Below are positions 1,561-64,000 of a stretch of DNA of 64,000 bases, in pieces. Made by a program: the position numbers and the translations under genes. Positions within the stretch are counted from its first letter, which is position 1; each line of letters opens with the position of its first letter. Below the pieces are notes generated by a model. That model saw nothing but the letters and a program-made list of their open reading frames with translations. It was not told where the DNA came from and ran no database searches. Source of the DNA: the human T2T-CHM13v2.0 reference genome, Homo sapiens; NCBI RefSeq assembly GCF_009914755.1, contig NC_060927.1; one strand, 5' to 3'.

Positions 1561-4179
1561 TATCTTGTTTATTTTTGTGCTTCCTCAGTCTCCCTTCACT
1601 AAAATAAAAACACCATTAAGTGCAAGAACTTCAGCCATCTGGTCCACTGATATACCTCTGGCACCTGGCAGAGAGCCTGGCACATAGTAGGTGCTTAGTG
1701 ATACTTGTAGAAAAAATTAGCTGCACAGCTTGTCTCTGCTTGAATGTTGGCATGCACAATTCTAGCGTTACCTATTATTTTGTCCAGTCTTTAAATTCCT
1801 GACCCAAGGTGTGAAACCACTTGCCTGTGTTCAAAGAACAGGTTAAGTGGCAAAACCAGGTTTTAGACCCAAGTCCTCTGATTCCAAATTTGGAGCCAGA
1901 TTCCAGAAGAATTCTCCATTCTAATCCCACCTTCTTCCTACAAGTCAAAGAACCGAGTTAACTGGTGTCTTCAATCAATTGATTACAGTATATCTATTAA
2001 AAGGCCTACCAAGAACCACTTTTGTCTCATTTTTAATGACTTCCAAAGATTCCCACAAACTCTCACTAACGTTCATATTCAAGTTTTCTGAAAATCCTTA
2101 TTCTTGTATGCCAGCTAAGATCTTTTCACCTTCATAAATCTCTGCCACAATTAGCCCATTATCAGATCAATATCCTCATCATGATTTATCTCTGTAGCAG
2201 AGTAGTGAATAAGACTAGGGAGTCAGATTTACCTTCTTAGCAGCTCTCCTGCCCTGAATTAAACAGGATGCCCCAGCATGTTGCCTTCTGCTACAAGCTT
2301 TAGTGTCTGTCTGTAAACAAACCCAAGTAAGGTTGAAAAGCACTCCTTATGAAGTAAGATAGCCAGAGAGTGACAGGGATGCCACACCAGAGAAGCTGAG
2401 CAGTCTGCCCCTGGGCAGCATCCAGTCTGCCACCCACCAGCTGGTCAGAACTAAGGCAGGACAGAGGGACACAGGAGATGGCCTGGATCACAGTTCTCAA
2501 AACAGTATGACTTCACTCCAGGGTGCCAAGAAAGGCACCAAAAATAAAAACTAGTAACAACAAAAACCCAAAGCCTGCAAATCGGAGTTGCTTTCTACCT
2601 ATAAATAGAGCAGATTATCTGCATAATATCCAGTTCACTCCTTAGTATGCGAGCCAACGCACACTCTGAAGAGTCCTGGCTAAGGGGTTGAGAGCCCAGT
2701 TTTGGAGGGTGTGTTTAAAACAACCGAGTTCAAGTTCCAGCTCCTTCACAACTCACTGTGCCATGACTTTTTCTAAGCTCAGTTTCCAATCTTTACATAT
2801 CTAAATCAATACATATCTAAAGTGGAGGTAAGCTCTATTTCTGAGCATTGTATACATTTTAAGTGTGATGATATGCATACCAGGCTTAGTACTGGTACAT
2901 GTAACTCCTTGATAAATTGTTTCATGGTTATTGTTACATCTCAAAAGACAGAGCAGAATCAGTCAGAAGTGCAAGAGAAGAGTAAGGATTAATGGAAAAG
3001 GGGTTGGAAGAAGAGACTCACTTTTTCTATGTAATGAGAGTCAGCACCGTGCTTGATGACAATAGCACAGAGGGACAGAGACAATCCCAAGAACACAAAA
3101 TACAGATGTGTCTACCATCAGGGATAATTCAACTATGTCCAGTAAAATGTTTATAGGAGTACAAATAAAGTCTGCCGGTTTTTGGTGTCTACTACACATT
3201 TGGCACATTTCACACATCTTTTTTAATACTCATAACATACCTGACGCTCAGAGGAGACACAAGGATTGCCCTGGGATTCCAGACTAGTGAGTGATAGAGC
3301 TAGGCTGCAAACCCAACACTCCCCTGGACGCTGAATAAATGTCTTTTCCAGAACAGCATGTTTACTTGAAACTAGTATTTCAAATATGGCAATAAGAAAA
3401 CTTTCAATTACATTTCATAAAACAGAACAATCTATGTCATGCTGCTTATGAGGACTCAATAACCTTACTTAAAAGATAACCCATCTAAACGGGTTAATTA
3501 ACCATTTAAATACCAAGGCCATGATGAATGTTGGCTTTAGATCTTTAAAGGGCCTGCTTCTGAATTCTGTACCTGTTTTGCTAGACTGAGACTCCTGCAT
3601 TCACACCCACTCAGACTGTCTCACCAAAGAACAGACTGTGCTCTCCTTTCCAGACCTTTTCACTCTGCAGCTAAAGAGGAATGTCTAGGACTAAGCCCCA
3701 CAAGCTATACAAACTCCTGACACAGCGCCAGGGGCACATTCACCTCTGCCCACGCTGTAACCGGTTTGATGGATGGCTTTGGATGACATTCAGAATGGGC
3801 ACCAGCTTTCAGAAGGAGGGCTGATAAAGCAGCCTCTTTAGAAACATAGACCCCAAAGGCTCCTAATGGGCATACACAGGTGCCCACCACATAGAGTTAT
3901 AGAAAATAAGTTGAAAAGTCTGAGTGAGAACTGATACTAATGAAATATGTTTAAAGCTAACAAAAAATGTTTAATGTTTTAAATTAATTTAAGTACTGGT
4001 GCCAAAACAATGACATATGATGCGTGAAATGTCCCTGGTCAGGTAATTATACAAGAAGTCTATGGATGAAAGACTGTCTAACCAATTTTATCAAAAAACA
4101 GCAAAAGTTGAAGTAAGACTAGCACCTAATTTTTTCCCTCCTGAACTCTGTTACTAAACTTTGTTACAATAGCATTATG

Positions 4180-57154: not shown

Positions 57155-60100
57155 AGCAGGCTGCAAGACAACCTAATAGAACCCTCCAGCAATCACCACC
57201 ACTTCCAAGCAATAGGAACACTACATGGAAAGACAATCCACACAAGAAAACACCTTCATAAGAAGCAAAAATCAGGTGAGCAGTCACAGTACCCGGTTTT
57301 AAAATCATAACAAGGAAAGCGCATTGAAAAGGGTAGGAAAAACAGTCTTGAATTGCCCACACTGCCACTTCCATCCCCTGGCAGAAGCTGCATGGCACAG
57401 AAAAAGAATCTGTGTGCTTGGAGAAGAGCACAGTGATTGTGGGACTTTGCATTGAAATTCACAGCTGCCCTGTCACAGTGGAAAACAACATGGGGGCAGA
57501 ACCCAGCTGGCACCATCAGACAGAATATTTAGACAAGCCCTAGCCAGAGAAGAATCACCCTTCTCAGTGGTCAGAACCTGAGTTCCAGCTAGCTCCATCA
57601 CTGTGGGAAAAAGTCCTCTAAGGTCCTAAATAAACTTGAAAGGCAGCCTAGGCCACAAGGACTGCAATTCCTGAGCAAGTCCTGATGCTGTGCTGGGCTT
57701 ATAGCCTGTGGACTTGGTGGGTGCACAACCCAGGGAGACACCATCCGGGGCAACTAAGGGAGTACTTGTGTCACCCCTCCCCCAAACCCAGGCAGTGCAG
57801 CTTGCAGCTCCAGGAGAGACTCCTTTCTTCTGCTTGAGGAGAGGTAAGGGGAAAGTAAAGAGAACTTTGTCTTGGAACTTGGATACCAGCCCAACCACAG
57901 TGGAATATGGCACCAGGCAGAGTCCTAAGGACTCTATTCCAGGCCCTTGCTTATGGATGACATTTCTAGATACACTGTGGGCCAGAAGGGAACCTACTGC
58001 CTTGAAGGGAAGAAACTAGTCCAGGTAGGATTTATCACCTGCTGACTAAAGGGTCCTTGGGCCTTAAATAAACATCAGTGGTTGCCAGGCAGTACTTATC
58101 ACGGGGCTTCAGTGAGACCCAGGGTCATGCTGGCTTTAAGTGTGACCCAGCACATTCCCAGCTGTGGTGCCCATAGAGAGAGACTTCTTCTGTTGAGGAA
58201 AGGAGAGGGAAGACTAAAGGGCACTTTGTCTTGCAGCTTGGGTACCAACTTGGCCACAGTAGGGTAGGGCACCAAGCAGGCTTCTGGGATCCCCAATTCC
58301 ATATCTTGGTTCCTGAATGGCATTTCTGGACTCATCCTGGGCTGGAGGGGTGATCACTGCCTTAAAAAGAGAAACTCAGGCCTAGCTGGGTTCACTATCT
58401 GCTGCCTGAAGGGACTTTTGTCCTTGAGTGAATATCAGCAGTAGCCAGGCAGTGGTCACTGTGCACCTTGGGTAAGAAATAGTGCTGTGCTGGCTTTGGA
58501 TCCAGTCCAGTGCAGTCCCAGTGGTGGTGGCCACAGAGGTGCTTGTGTCACCCCTCCAACAGCTCCAGGCAACTCGGCACAAAGAGAGACACTTCATTTC
58601 TTCAGGGAAAAGTTAAGGAAGAGGAGAAGAGTCTCTGCCTGGTAATCCAGGGACTTCTACTGCATCTTACCAAGACAATTAAGGTAGTATCTCTACAAGT
58701 CTGCAAGAGCCACAGTGTTACTGGGCTTGAGGTATCCCATAATGCAGATACAGCTGCAGTGACCAAAGTTTTAGATCACAACACTTCATTCCTCTTGAAT
58801 ACCTGGAAAGCCTTCCCAAGAAGGACAGATACAAACTACTCCAGACTGCAAAAACTATAATAAATACCTAACTGTTCAATGCCCAGACATTGCTGAACAT
58901 CCACAAGCACCGATACCATCCAGGAAAACATGACCTCACCAAATGAAGTAAATAAGGCACAAGTGGCCAATACCGGAATGACAGACATATGTGACCTTTC
59001 AGACAGAAAATTCAGCATAGCTGTTTTAAGGAAGCTCAATGGAATTCAAGACAACACAGAGAAGGAATTCAAAATCCTACCAGTTAAATTTAACAAAGAG
59101 ATTGAAATAGTTTTTAAAAATTAAGCAAAAATTCTGGAGTTGAAAAATTTAACTGACATACTGAAGAATGTATCAGAGTCTTCCAACAGCTGAACTAATG
59201 AAGCAGAATAAATAATTAGTGAGCTTGAAAACAGGCTGTTTTAAAACACAGTCAGAGGAGACAAAAGAAAAAAGAACAAAAAACAATGAATCACACCGAC
59301 AGGATCTGTAAAATAGCCCCAAAAGGGCAAATCTAAGAGTTATTGGCCTTAAGGAGGAGGCAGAAAAACAGATAGAGTAGAAAGTGTATTCAAAGGGATA
59401 ATAACAGAGAAAATCCCAAACCTAGAGAAAGATATCAATATTCAAGTACAGGAAGGTTATAAAACACCAAACAGATTTAACTCAAAGAAGATTACCTCAA
59501 AGCATTTAACAATCAAACTTCCAAAGGTTAGGAATAAAGAAAGGATATTAAAAGCAGCAAGAGAAAAAAAGTAAATAACATATAAAGAAGTTCCAGTATG
59601 TCTGGCAGCAGACATCTCAGTGGAAACCTTTCAGGCCAGGAGAGGGTGGCATGACATATTTAAAGTACTGAAAGAAAAAAAAAAAAAAAAACTTTCCTCA
59701 TAAAATAGTATACCCAGCAAAAATATCTTTTAAACATGAAGGAGAAAATGTTTTCCCAGACAAAGAAAAGCTGAGGGATTTCATCAATACGAGACCTGTC
59801 CTACAAGAAATGCTAAAGGAGTTCTTCAGTCTGAAAGAAAAGGATGTTAAGCAATAAAAAATCATCTCAAGGTACAAAATCCACTGAAAACAGCAAGTAC
59901 ACAGACAAACTCAGAATATTAGAACATTGTAATTGTGGTATATAAAGTACTCATATCTTGAGTAGAAAGACTAAAAGATAAACCTATCAAAAATAATAAT
60001 TACAACATCTTTTCAAGACATAGTATAATAAGGAATAAATAGAAATGACTAAAAGTTTAAAAGTGGGATGAATTGAGTTAAAATGTCAAATTTGTATTAG

Positions 60101-60632
60101 TTTTCCTCTTATTTGTCTGCTTGTTGTTTTTGTTTGTTTTTGAAATCAGTGTTAAGTTGTTGTCAGCTTAAAATAATGGGTTATAAGATGTTATTTGCAA
60201 GCCTCATGGTAACCTCAAATCAAAAAACCTACCACAGATACACAGACAATTAAAAGTGAGAAATTAAAGCATACCACTAGAAAAAAAATTACCTTCACAA
60301 AAATGAACACGGGAAGAAAAGAAGGAAGAAAGAGAAGACTGCAAAACAACCAGAAAGCAAGCAATAAAATTGCAGGAGTACATCTTTACATATCAATAAT
60401 AACATTGGATGGAAATAAATGAACATCTTCAATCAAAAGACATAGAGTGGCTGAATGGATTTAAAAAAAAAGACCAAATGGTCTGTTGCCTACAAGGAAC
60501 ACACTTCACCTATATATACACATAGGCTAAAGACAAAGGAGTGGAAAAAGATATTCCTTGCAAATGAAAACCAAAAAAGAGCAGAAGTAGCTATTCTTAT
60601 ATTGTATGAAAGAGATTTCAAGACAAAAACTA
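57155..60632 (+). mobile_element. Old L1 (L1M1/L1MA-type): 5'UTR with internal repeats, decayed ORF1 (~58930-59850), start of ORF2 (~60370)
   Basis: caccttcataagaagcaaaaatcaggtgagc 5' motif; MTSPNEVNKA...DLSDRKFSIAVLRKL ORF1; caatcaaaagacatagagtggctgaatggat ORF2 endonuclease start. Confidence 0.9.
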
Positions 60633-62857
60633 GTGATGGACTAAGAGCTCCAGCTGGGGAAGTGTCACTGCCAAGCCTGCAGCCTGACGCCCTCTCAATA
60701 GTGCCTGCATTGGGTGTCACAGCACCTGTCTGAGCACTGGGCACACCCAAGGGCAGGCTCAGCTCCCACCCAGCCTTCCCATCTTGGCTGCTGCTTGGAG
60801 CCTGTACTGTCACTGCTGCCCTTTCTCTCAGGCCACACAGCCCAGTAAACACAGCCACAAGCTACATCGACAGTGCCCATGTTCTGCTGCTGAGCCACCA
60901 TGGAGTCACTCAATCCTTGGAGCCTAAATATACACAGCCCTGCTCTCAGACATACTTCCATTAGATTTAATAGCCAGCCTTCATCAATACTAATTTTCAG
61001 CTATGGAATCAAACATATATGGCCCTACTCTGGGACACACCTCTACCAGATTTAATAGACATTCCTCATTAACACTTTCAGCTATGGAATTGCAGACAGT
61101 TGATGATGAAGCAATGATATCATAAATGAATATCAAGTCAGGGAAGCAGAATGATGCCCAAGGGTGGATGTTCTAAAACGTGACAAGAATTTTCTCTCAG
61201 TGATGACATGGCAGAGAAATAAGCTAGGAAAAAATGATAAGATAAAGTTTCTCTAACCAAGACCTCAAAGCTGGACTACAGTGATGGAGGGAAGGAATTG
61301 AGAGAGCAAGCCACCAAGCGGAAGCTGCTCTTCACCCTGGGGGGGTGGGCAATGGACAGCAGAAGGACTCAGACACAGATGCTTCCAGCCAGCCCAGTCT
61401 CTGTTGTGGTACTGCAAGGTTGATACACTCCCTGAAGCACCACGGCATGAAATGGAGGTTCCTACAGCCAAGAAGAAAGAGAAGCAGGTTCTGAGCAGAA
61501 GACGATTAAGAAGGAGCCTGTCATCCAGAAGTCCAGCCTGCTATTTGGCATGGGGCTATCAGGGATCCAAGCCAGCTACCTCATCTCTGAACACCAGCAG
61601 GTGACTCTTCCCATGCAGATGACAGCCAAGGAGTCTGAAAACAGCCCAGAGGACAAAACACCAAATCACCCCTCCCAGTCTACAGTGTGTTGGAAGGGAA
61701 TAGCTAACTCTGCCTCAAAAAACAAAGATAAAGGGAACAAGACAAACAAACAAGCAGAGACCTTTCTGCACTGAGCTGCCATCTGAAGGGATATCCAGGA
61801 CTTCAAAGGGTTCATTAGTGAGTGGATGGACATCAACACCAAGGTCTTCACAGGCTGGACAGTGCCGCATGTAACATGTAACAAGGGATATTACACGGTT
61901 GCAAAGCAGCCACTGGCCCCAGGTACAGAGGTGAACACTAAGGGCCTGGTGAACACTACGCCTTTGCAGAACACCACCAACAACAGGCATGACAAGATTG
62001 GCAACTTCCCTTGGCCCTTCACACGTCTGCTCTGTCCTGATGTCTGGGTCATTCTGTAGCTTCGTGTTCCCCTATCCTAGCTAGTCTCATGGTGCTGGGC
62101 ATGAGGAAGTAAGTTTTTGCCTCCCTAACCTCAAAGACCGGCTGTCCCCTCTATCTGCCCCCAGCTTTCTCACCTTGGATCAGTACCTGAACAGCCTCTC
62201 ACAGTATTCACAACAAGCACCATCTAAAAAAAAAGGCTTACATCCATGAGACATGCAGGTCTGGTTGTGTTTTATCAGGTGAAGGATTACACCAAGTGGA
62301 AGGAGGCCTGCAGGAGTTGCTGCTGGTCCCTGTCGTTGTCACTGTGGGACTGTTAGACCTGCAAGGCAGATCCATCCAAGTCTGGAATGAAGTAATACCA
62401 TTCCACAGGTATAGCCAGTGCATAGGATGATAGAATCAAGAATCAAAAAATGACGATTATAACCAGCTCAGAAGCAGTGAGCACTAAGACGACTCAGCCT
62501 TCATGGAGAAGTGGCTGTTTCCAGGTCTGAAGCAAAGAATGACATGATGTACCCAAAACCCTCTGTCTTGCTGGAAAGGAGGGCTGGAACTCACAGGTGG
62601 GGAGGGTCTTAAGTAATCACCACAGCTCTGTGAAGAGCCCCCTGGCCATAGGCAGTATAGTTGGAGTGTGGTAAGGACAAGGCCAAGGGGACAAATGAGG
62701 CCACATCTGCTTGCATCCATCATACTCCTTTATGGCAAGTCATGCCTGGCTATTGTGGGAGATGCTGGAATCCACAGTGCCTAGGGTGTAAAAAACAGTT
62801 GCAAAAATGACAAGTCACTGTGGGGGATGGAGGGGACTCTGAATTAAAGATTTCTGT

Positions 62858-63140
62858 GACAATCAGGGAAACCTGAACTGATTACATATTTGATGTTAAA
62901 AAAATCCTATTAAATTTTTAGGTAAGATAATGGCATTATGGTTTGTTTTGTTTGTTTTTTTTAAGGGCCCTTCCAGAGAAATGTACTGAAAAAGTCTACG
63001 CAATGTCTGGGATTTGCTAAACAATACCTGGAAAGCAGACAGGTATGAGTGGAATGGCACTGGCTGTGGGCTGACAGGTGACGCAACTGGGGCAGGGGGC
63101 ATCCTTTGAGTTTTTATATTTTTGTAATTATCACTTTTAA
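62858..63140 (+). mobile_element. Ancient L1M (MC/ME) 3' fragment inside the retrocopy
   Basis: acaatcagggaaa..., ttttaggtaagataatggcattatggtt, atgtctgggatttgct. Confidence 0.6.
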
Positions 63141-63181
63141 ACTTTTTATTATTGAGAATGTCAAAGACCCTGGAAACATGG

Positions 63182-63600
63182 TGAGGTAAGCAAGAAAATG
63201 GTCCCCAAGTGCTTACATCACGACTCCAGAAGCTATGGGTATATGACCACACATAGGAGATTATCCAGGATTATCTGGGCTGGCCCAGGGTAACCACATG
63301 AGTCCTTGCAGTTTAAGAGCTTTTCCTGGCTGAGCCACACAGATACCAAAAGAAGCAGAAAACATTAGAGCCTGAGGGCCCTCCTCAGGCTTCTTCTGGT
63401 ATCTGGCTTTGCTGGCCTTGGAGTAGGGGGCCAAGGAATGTGGTGGCCTCTTAGGGGCTGGGAACAGGAACCTCAGTCCCGCTCCTGCCAGCACCTTGAC
63501 CTTAGCCCAGTTAGGGAGGCAGATTTTGGACCTCTGACTTCCAGAACTGTAGCCTAAGATTGCAGTGATTTGTTGTAAGTTGCAATAGAAAACTCATACA
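63182..63600 (+). mobile_element. MLT1 (D/E-like) LTR inside the retrocopy
   Basis: gagattatccaggattatctgggctggccc, gccaaggaatgtggtggcctct, ctgacttccagaactgta, gcaatagaaaactcataca. Confidence 0.75.
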
Positions 63601-63977
63601 CATAAAAACTCTGTGTGGATTAAACAATATAAAATATAATATACTAAATAAAAATAGATTATGTGTGTGACAAGACTCTATATCAAGCTTTATTACAGAT
63701 TCTTTTAATGCACTAATCTCAGACTGAAATAAAGTTGAAATTAAATTTAATATTTGTACTTGAGTTATGTGTATCACTGTCCTGGTGTATGAAACACAGT
63801 TTGCTGATGATGAACAGCTGGACAGCGCTCTGGAAATGTCACCATGGGTGTTCCTGCCACTAATATTACCACCTTTATGCTTGTGAAGTCAAGCAAGGAA
63901 GATACTATCTTATATTATAATGTAAATGAAAATGAAAAATAAACCAGCTTACAGAAACTTGGAAAAAGAAGAAAATG

Positions 63978-64000
63978 TATAAAAAGAGACAAAGAAGGTC
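63978..64000 (+). mobile_element. Resumption of the interrupted L1 ORF2
   Basis: tataaaaagagacaaagaaggtc is the L1 sequence expected directly after gatttcaagacaaaaac (60614-60630); only 23 bp visible. Confidence 0.75.

What the first reader, a model, noticed from the sequence alone, without database searches (positions are those of the whole stretch)
60633..63975. ANKRD11 retrocopy of a truncated, probably intron-polyadenylated isoform
Seen: homology to ANKRD11 ends at ...aacaggcatgacaag (61996, NGHYK, K248), which I recall as the exon 7 end (c.744). It continues attggc (possibly a decayed GT donor) to a stop at 62057-62059, then ~2 kb non-coding to AATAAA (63938) and an A-rich tail, after which the host L1 ORF2 resumes. 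Established: ANKRD11 is a dosage-sensitive chromatin regulator (KBG syndrome) with repression domains downstream of the ankyrin repeats. Inference: an ancient germline mRNA encoding only the N-terminus and partial ankyrin repeats existed and may still be made.
Basis: partly seen in the sequence, partly recalled or inferred. Interest (0 to 1): 0.7.

Follow-up and report, generated by a model that had tools for sequence, protein, structure and literature searches.

The report
ANKRD11 retrocopy with a repeated exon
An old, broken DNA copy of an ANKRD11 messenger RNA sits inside an L1 element and preserves a short form of the message that carries an extra stop-codon exon, ends early inside intron 7 and contains exon 2 twice, the doubling likely being a trace of two RNAs spliced together.

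Summary
Window 60633-63962 is a near full-length, disabled retrocopy of ANKRD11 inside an L1 ORF2. Its exon order is 1-2-2-3-4-4b-5-6-7, then 1872 nt of intron 7. It ends 19 nt after the only AATAAA pair in the parent intron, where the parent has no A-run, so it records true intronic polyadenylation.

(1) A 97-nt exon 4b puts a stop after 97 codons, 404 nt before the last junction. From the normal start the message encodes no ankyrin repeat and is a predicted decay target. An unnamed database protein identical to the 4b-5-6-7-intron 7 frame suggests the isoform is still made. Exon 4b is also spliced in a Bos-like mammal.

(2) The 85-nt exon 2 occurs twice, joined donor to acceptor. Today's gene has one copy, and the two copies diverged as far as the insertion is old, so the template RNA already held the repeat. 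Trans-splicing is my lead (about 50%); a lost ancestral duplication allele (about 35%) is not excluded.

It is a known kind of fossil, and the isoform is probably already annotated. The repeated exon is the unusual part.

The parts
59000..60632 (+). Host L1, ORF1 end to ORF2 start (5' flank; the element extends further left); last 8-13 nt are the left target-site copy
   Evidence: 8645 first-look candidates, best full-length copies 77-78% identical; left flank aligns up to the empty site in 3 of 3 paralogous L1s
60633..60926 (+). ANKRD11 exon 1 (CpG-decayed)
   Evidence: 66% to C16:95571192-95570901; 57 of 111 CpG positions changed
60927..61011 (+). Exon 2, copy A
   Evidence: 82% to C16:95498921-95498837, 85 nt, no gaps
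61012..61092 (+). Exon 2, copy B, joined head-to-tail to copy A exactly at the parent's donor and acceptor
   Evidence: 80% to the same parent exon, one 4-nt deletion
61093..61235 (+). Exon 3 with the canonical start codon
61236..61378 (+). Exon 4
   Evidence: 81% to C16:95385636-95385502
61379..61479 (+). Exon 4b: 97-nt AG..GT cassette exon, frameshifting, with an in-frame stop and its own ATGs in the downstream frame
   Evidence: 87% to C16:95372100-95372004
61480..61649 (+). Exon 5
   Evidence: 84%
61650..61853 (+). Exon 6
   Evidence: 78%
61854..61996 (+). Exon 7
61997..63962 (+). First 1872 nt of intron 7 used as terminal exon; read-through stop 62057-62059; AATAAA 63938-63943; end at 63962
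62966..63042 (+). 77-nt exon annotated by the hub for a KCNMB2 transcript, inside the retrocopy; its AG acceptor is absent at the aligned parent position
   Evidence: hub gene table
63963..63979 (+). Poly(A) remnant (3-9 nt) plus decayed right target-site copy
   Evidence: read by eye against three paralogous empty sites
63980..64000 (+). Host L1 ORF2 resumes and continues beyond the window

Best explanation
This is a dead processed pseudogene of ANKRD11 in the exon order 1-2-2-3-4-4b-5-6-7 plus 1872 nt of intron 7, likely copied by L1 in an early primate germline from a spliced mRNA that ended at an intron-7 poly(A) signal and whose doubled exon 2 likely arose by trans-splicing between two ANKRD11 pre-mRNAs. 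Shown (about 0.95): the exon order, the end 19 nt after the signal, the stop in exon 4b, and the disablements. Inferred (about 0.85): the 4b plus intron-7 isoform is still made. Inferred (about 0.7): it is a non-productive, decay-prone product that diverts ANKRD11 output, since the canonical frame stops after 97 codons, 404 nt before the last junction. Inferred (about 0.9): the repeat was in the RNA template. Inferred (about 0.5): trans-splicing rather than a genomic duplication made it. The confidence below is for the whole chain.
For: Eight spliced junctions fall at the parent's AG/GT sites, and the model with two exons 2 and 4b scores 2861 against 2682 (single exon 2) and 2624 (no 4b). The parent intron holds two AATAAA, both at the end point, with TGTA just upstream and 1 A in the next 20 nt; 28 of 2341 positions would fit by chance. 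Four stops and six frameshifting indel events lie in the coding part. Exon 4b diverged like coding exons (11 of 93 non-CpG sites) and less than intron 7 (376 of 1736, p=0.026). P0001 equals the 224-aa frame of the parent 4b-5-6-7-intron 7 model letter for letter. P0046 and P0047 join 4b to exon 5, and P0047 differs from Bos ANKRD11 at 1 of 126 residues. One exon 2 copy in 214 kb of the parent locus and none elsewhere in the genome search. The copies differ at 21 of 81 sites, with branches 0.136 and 0.123 against 0.133 (56 of 420) at zero-fold sites. Random duplication would hit whole exons in about 4 of 100,000 registers. The flanking introns are 72 and 101 kb, a trait of trans-spliced and circular junctions (PMC6283421 passages).
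Against: A genomic tandem duplication gives the same RNA by ordinary splicing, and one is documented at this gene for exons 3-8 (PMC4383199); sequence alone cannot separate the two. No present-day read with the exon 2-2 junction was seen. The tail and target-site duplication are decayed. P0001 is a prediction on an unnamed assembled contig that I did not see, so intron retention is not excluded. Exon 4b keeps an ATG and an open downstream frame in human and the Bos-like records, which also fits an alternative N-terminus. PMC4383199 reports ANKRD11 mutant transcripts with premature stops that seemed to escape decay. Inverted repeats around exon 2 (36) are about as many as direct ones (31) and may postdate the insertion.
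Confidence: 0.55

Rival explanations
1. Same retrocopy, but the individual in whose germline it formed carried an intragenic tandem duplication of ANKRD11 that included exon 2 only. Ordinary cis-splicing gave 1-2-2-3, and the allele was later lost.
For: Introns 1 and 2 are a 173-kb target for breakpoints. Exon 2 is non-coding, so the allele could be near neutral, and every transcript from it would carry the repeat. An exon 3-8 duplication with repeated-exon transcripts is reported (PMC4383199). Equal branch lengths fit a recent duplication just as well.
Against: No remnant of a second exon 2 in the 214-kb human locus. It needs a rare allele to meet a rare retroposition.
Confidence: 0.33
2. L1 reverse transcriptase made the repeat by switching templates, for example from the linear mRNA onto an exon-2 circle and back, or by slipping back 85 nt.
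For: Published primers for circANKRD11 (hsa_circ_0004566) both lie in exon 2, although they are convergent and so do not define the junction. Non-colinear junctions can arise by other reverse-transcription routes (PMC4897178).
Against: A slip has only 2 nt of shared sequence at the ends of exons 1 and 2. The circle route needs two switches and a circle whose junction is exon 2 to exon 2.
Confidence: 0.09
3. The repeat is a DNA tandem duplication inside the pseudogene after insertion.
For: The two copies share 4 differences from the human parent, which could be changes made before a duplication.
Against: The unit matches the exon in length and register (about 4 in 100,000 by chance). The copies differ at 21 of 81 sites, about twice the pseudogene's own divergence and more than once (p=0.003). 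The 4 shared differences could be changes in the parent lineage; no outgroup was available to polarise them.
Confidence: 0.03
4. The 4b plus intron-7 isoform is productive. Translation from an ATG in 4b gives a 201-224-aa protein with about two and a half ankyrin repeats and no repression domains, which could compete with full-length ANKRD11.
For: The ATG at the first base of 4b and the open frame are kept in human, the Bos-like records and P0048. The stop lies in the last exon, 203 nt after the last junction. Pfam finds ankyrin repeats at 129-206. The N-terminus is said to homodimerise (PMC4383199 background).
Against: In the fossil mRNA six upstream ATGs and a 97-codon frame precede these starts. 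Reinitiation after so long a frame is poor (own knowledge). No named database entry with this N-terminus came up.
Confidence: 0.2
5. The template was a partly spliced nuclear RNA primed internally in intron 7, not a polyadenylated isoform.
For: The surviving tail is very short.
Against: The copy runs 19 nt past the A-rich hexamers and stops where the parent has 1 A in 20 nt. The last 72 non-CpG sites are better conserved than the rest, 8 changes, p=0.028, a post hoc test.
Confidence: 0.03

Closest known systems
L1-made processed pseudogenes as fossils of alternative isoforms (Shemesh et al. 2006; seen only as a reference-list entry, content recalled)
   Same: Intronless copy on another chromosome, ends at a poly(A) signal, disabled, preserves an isoform other than the main one
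   Different: Also holds a non-colinear exon junction
circRNA-derived pseudogenes (Dong et al. 2016, PMC4897178)
   Same: A donor-to-upstream-acceptor junction fixed in the genome
   Different: Here the junction sits inside a full linear message with exon 1, exons 3-7 and a poly(A) end; those copies are confined to circle exons and poor in 3' A
Intragenic trans-spliced RNA / exon repetition (PMC10450196, PMC6283421, PMC4824033)
   Same: Repeated exon at canonical splice sites, out-of-circle exons on both sides, long flanking introns
   Different: The evidence is a germline DNA fossil rather than cDNA, so a laboratory RT artefact is excluded but an ancestral genomic duplication is not
ANKRD11 non-coding RefSeq variant (recalled as NR_045839; not checked, 0 papers)
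   Same: Recalled as carrying an extra internal exon and an early 3' end, which would match 4b plus the intron-7 end
   Different: Its structure could not be verified here; the doubled exon 2 is not recalled in it

Membership tests
L1 processed pseudogene | Introns removed at the parent's splice sites | tested here: met
   8 spliced junctions
L1 processed pseudogene | 3' end at a poly(A) signal with a non-templated tail | tested here: met
   End 19 nt after AATAAA; parent not A-rich there; tail only 3-9 nt
L1 processed pseudogene | Target-site duplication at an endonuclease-type site | tested here: inconclusive
   8-13 nt, about 10 of 13 matching by eye; host L1 continuous across the insert in 3 of 3 paralogues
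L1 processed pseudogene | Disabled reading frame | tested here: met
   4 stops and 6 frameshifting indel events; no Pfam hit in the longest ankyrin-region ORF
Intronic polyadenylation isoform (composite terminal exon) | Hexamer 10-30 nt before the end, UGUA upstream, pyrimidine-rich downstream, no genomic A-run | tested here: met
Intronic polyadenylation isoform (composite terminal exon) | 3'-end sequencing support today | not testable with these tools
   P0001 shows read-through into intron 7 but not the 3' end
Poison exon | Stop more than 50-55 nt before the last junction | tested here: met
   404 nt
Poison exon | Conserved across mammals | tested here: met
   11 of 93 vs 376 of 1736 sites changed; spliced in Bos-like records
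Poison exon | Isoform stabilised when decay is blocked | not testable with these tools
   needs UPF1/SMG1 data
circRNA-derived pseudogene | Non-colinear junction | tested here: met
   exon 2 end joined to exon 2 start
circRNA-derived pseudogene | Sequence confined to circle exons, no poly(A) end | tested here: not met
   exon 1, exons 3-7 and the poly(A) signal are all present
Intragenic trans-spliced RNA | Junction at canonical splice sites with out-of-circle exons in the same molecule | tested here: met
Intragenic trans-spliced RNA | Genomic rearrangement excluded | tested here: inconclusive
   single copy in the human locus today; the ancestral allele cannot be seen
Intragenic trans-spliced RNA | RT-independent, RNase R-sensitive linear RNA detected | not testable with these tools
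   supplements of PMC10450196 and PMC6283421 could not be read

The most novel reading that the evidence does not exclude
A germline DNA fossil of a trans-spliced, exon-repeated mRNA: in-cell evidence, free of laboratory RT artefact, that linear exon repetition occurred in a primate germ line roughly 45-65 million years ago. The same molecule shows a conserved double off-switch (poison exon 4b plus intron-7 polyadenylation) on the dosage-sensitive KBG gene. Scanning all retrocopies for such junctions would measure how common exon repetition is.
Probability: 0.4. Interest if true: 0.65.

Novelty: new variant of a known kind. Interest (0 to 1): 0.45.

Why it matters
Whether repeated-exon linear mRNAs are real is hard to settle because reverse transcriptase artefacts, circles and rearrangements all mimic them. 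A full-length retrocopy with such a junction removes the first two. The fossil also dates exon 4b and the intron-7 end to early primates or earlier. Both remove ANKRD11's downstream domains, so they are candidate dosage switches, and places to look for non-coding KBG variants or for splice-switching targets. The copy itself appears to have no coding function, but it donates an annotated exon to a KCNMB2 transcript.

Tried and rejected
Internal priming: rejected. Late DNA duplication of exon 2: rejected. Second genomic exon 2 in human: none in 214 kb or in the genome search. Other human retrocopies of the 5' half or of intron 7: none; only C3 and C16 matched strongly. The repeat finder added nothing beyond the 85-nt pair.

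Literature: NR_045839 gave 0 papers. ANKRD11 plus intronic polyadenylation gave 1 paper, seen as a listing only. Searches listed nothing that describes this locus or isoform by title or abstract start; most listed papers were not opened. ANKRD11 had 0 hits in the main text of PMC10450196 and PMC6283421, in the 3 supplement files held for PMC4897178, and in the 1 file held for PMC7290577. PMC8021255 gives no exon make-up for its circle. Longer proteins with the 4b N-terminus: none among 2 candidates, weak evidence. The narwhal (P0002) and pike (P0025) models that read through the same donor were not counted as proof of conserved polyadenylation, because gene models can end in retained introns.

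Full report
Observation. The window lies at G000:C3:181536001-181600000. Genome searches with 60625-61250, 61100-62000 and 61997-63975 matched, besides the window itself, a series of colinear segments on the minus strand of C16. The third query also hit short multi-copy repeat fragments. Proteins that match these segments are named ANKRD11 by their sources. I aligned the insert to a 214-kb stretch of the parent locus. The insert runs from 60633 to 63962 in the order exon 1, 2, 2, 3, 4, 4b, 5, 6, 7 and the first 1872 nt of intron 7. Exon numbers follow NM_013275 as recalled; PMC4383199 (passages) agrees on non-coding 5' exons and the CAG at the start of exon 3. All parent segments are bounded by AG and GT.

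Insertion. The flanks are an L1 whose best paralogues are 77-78% identical over 59000-60630. Three paralogous empty sites show the ORF2 sequence continuous across the insert, with an 8-13-nt decayed target duplication and a tail of only 3-9 nt (the duplication was read by eye). The L1 continues for kilobases past 64000. The copy has 4 stops and 6 frameshifting indel events in coding exons. Divergence at zero-fold, non-CpG sites is 56 of 420 (K2P 0.148): 17 of 224 at A/T sites and 39 of 196 at G/C sites. The host L1 differs from paralogues at 80 of 504 sites, about 8% per lineage. With recalled neutral rates of 2.2-3 x 10^-9 per year this is roughly 45-65 million years. P0048, an unnamed record, shares 20 derived residues of 89 with the human copy and ends at the same stop, so it is most likely the orthologous copy in another primate.

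The 3' end. The 2341-nt parent intron 7 has two AATAAA, at 1841 and 1848, with TGTA at 1831. The copy ends at 1872, 19 nt after the second hexamer. The next 20 parent bases hold one A, and the next 40 hold 33 pyrimidines. Only 28 of 2341 positions lie 10-30 nt after a hexamer. This is cleavage and polyadenylation, not internal priming.

Exon 4b. A 97-nt cassette between exons 4 and 5 shifts the frame. From the canonical ATG the parent model gives 97 aa, with the stop 404 nt before the last junction; without 4b it gives 267 aa. Two ATGs in 4b are in frame with exon 5 and give 224 or 201 aa, ending 203 nt after the last junction. Exon 4b changed at 11 of 93 non-CpG sites, like coding exons (p=0.74) and less than intron 7 (376 of 1736, p=0.026), so it has been under selection in the parent. 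A search with exon 7 plus the read-through tail gave 45 hits among 46 candidates, and only P0001 matched the whole tail at 100%. P0001 (224 aa, 19 members, longest contig 2803 nt, unnamed assembled source) equals the parent 4b-5-6-7-intron 7 frame exactly. The model spans 2772 nt from exon 3 and 2857 nt from exon 2 to the signal, which brackets 2803, but I did not see the contig. A search with the 4b N-terminus gave 4 hits among 6 candidates. P0046 and P0047 join 4b to exon 5, and P0047 differs from Bos ANKRD11 at 1 of 126 residues against 3 from human, so 4b is likely older than primates. P0004 (Cebus) is a diverged copy with an intron-7 tail, 12 of 134 residues from marmoset ANKRD11; it may be an independent retrocopy of this isoform, which is untested. 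I recall RefSeq listing a non-coding ANKRD11 variant of this kind (NR_045839) but could not check it, so I treat the isoform as probably annotated. The hub table lists no pseudogene in the window.

The doubled exon 2. Copies A and B abut exactly at the parent's donor and acceptor. The human locus has one exon 2, and the genome search with it found only the parent and the two chr3 copies. Over 81 sites, A alone differs at 11, B alone at 10, and both differ from the parent at 4. The branches are 0.136 and 0.123 against 0.133 for the pseudogene overall. The copies were therefore identical at about the time of insertion. A random duplication of 10-300 nt would match whole exons in 36 of 874,455 registers, and the ends of exons 1 and 2 share only 2 nt. 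The repeat was thus very likely made by splicing. Two routes remain: trans-splicing between two pre-mRNAs, or cis-splicing of an ancestral duplication allele. Trans-spliced and circular RNAs share junctions and favour long flanking introns (PMC6283421 passages); here the introns are 72 and 101 kb. Inverted repeats within 10 kb on each side number 36, direct ones 31, which is no enrichment. PMC10450196 (passages) requires exclusion of rearrangements, which I cannot do for an extinct allele, and PMC4383199 shows a real duplication of exons 3-8 producing repeated-exon transcripts. I put trans-splicing near 0.5 and duplication near 0.33; these are judgements, not computed values.

Comparison. It is a processed pseudogene by every test that could be run, with the target duplication inconclusive. 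It shares the non-colinear junction of circRNA-derived pseudogenes (PMC4897178, part 1 of 2 of the text read) but fails their other features. It has the anatomy of an exon-repeated linear RNA, but membership is open. My ten literature searches found no description of this locus or of the isoform. The library lacks most subscription journals, the supplements of two key papers were unreadable, and the Shemesh 2006 paper was not held.

Verdict. Real and mostly explained: an ordinary class of fossil with an isoform that is probably known, plus one unusual and testable feature. Interest 0.45.

Noticed in passing
window 62966-63042 (+): An exon annotated for a KCNMB2 transcript lies inside the retrocopy's intron-7-derived part. 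Its AG acceptor is absent at the aligned parent position while the GT donor is shared. The retrocopy's poly(A) signal is also in KCNMB2 sense.
   Followed up: partly
P0004 (Cebus, UniRef A0A2K5QYQ1): Diverged ANKRD11 copy with marmoset-type residues and an intron-7 read-through tail; possibly a second, independent retrocopy of the same isoform.
   Followed up: partly
P0002 (narwhal), P0025 (pike): Gene models of 268 and 265 aa that read through the exon 7 donor and stop, hinting that the intron-7 end may be far older than primates.
   Followed up: no
P0006-P0012: 421-aa ANKRD11 models in several mammals that join exon 7 directly to the C-terminal exons, another use of the same donor.
   Followed up: no
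L022 about 2490-3730 (beyond the window's right end): The host L1 seems to carry a second L1 insert with an inverted segment; read by eye.
   Followed up: no
window 63250-63340 and 63430-63560: Multi-copy repeat fragments inherited from ANKRD11 intron 7; recalled as an old MLT1-type LTR, not tested.
   Followed up: no
PMC10619537, primer table: Both primers given for circANKRD11 lie in exon 2 and point towards each other, so they would also amplify the linear mRNA.
   Followed up: partly
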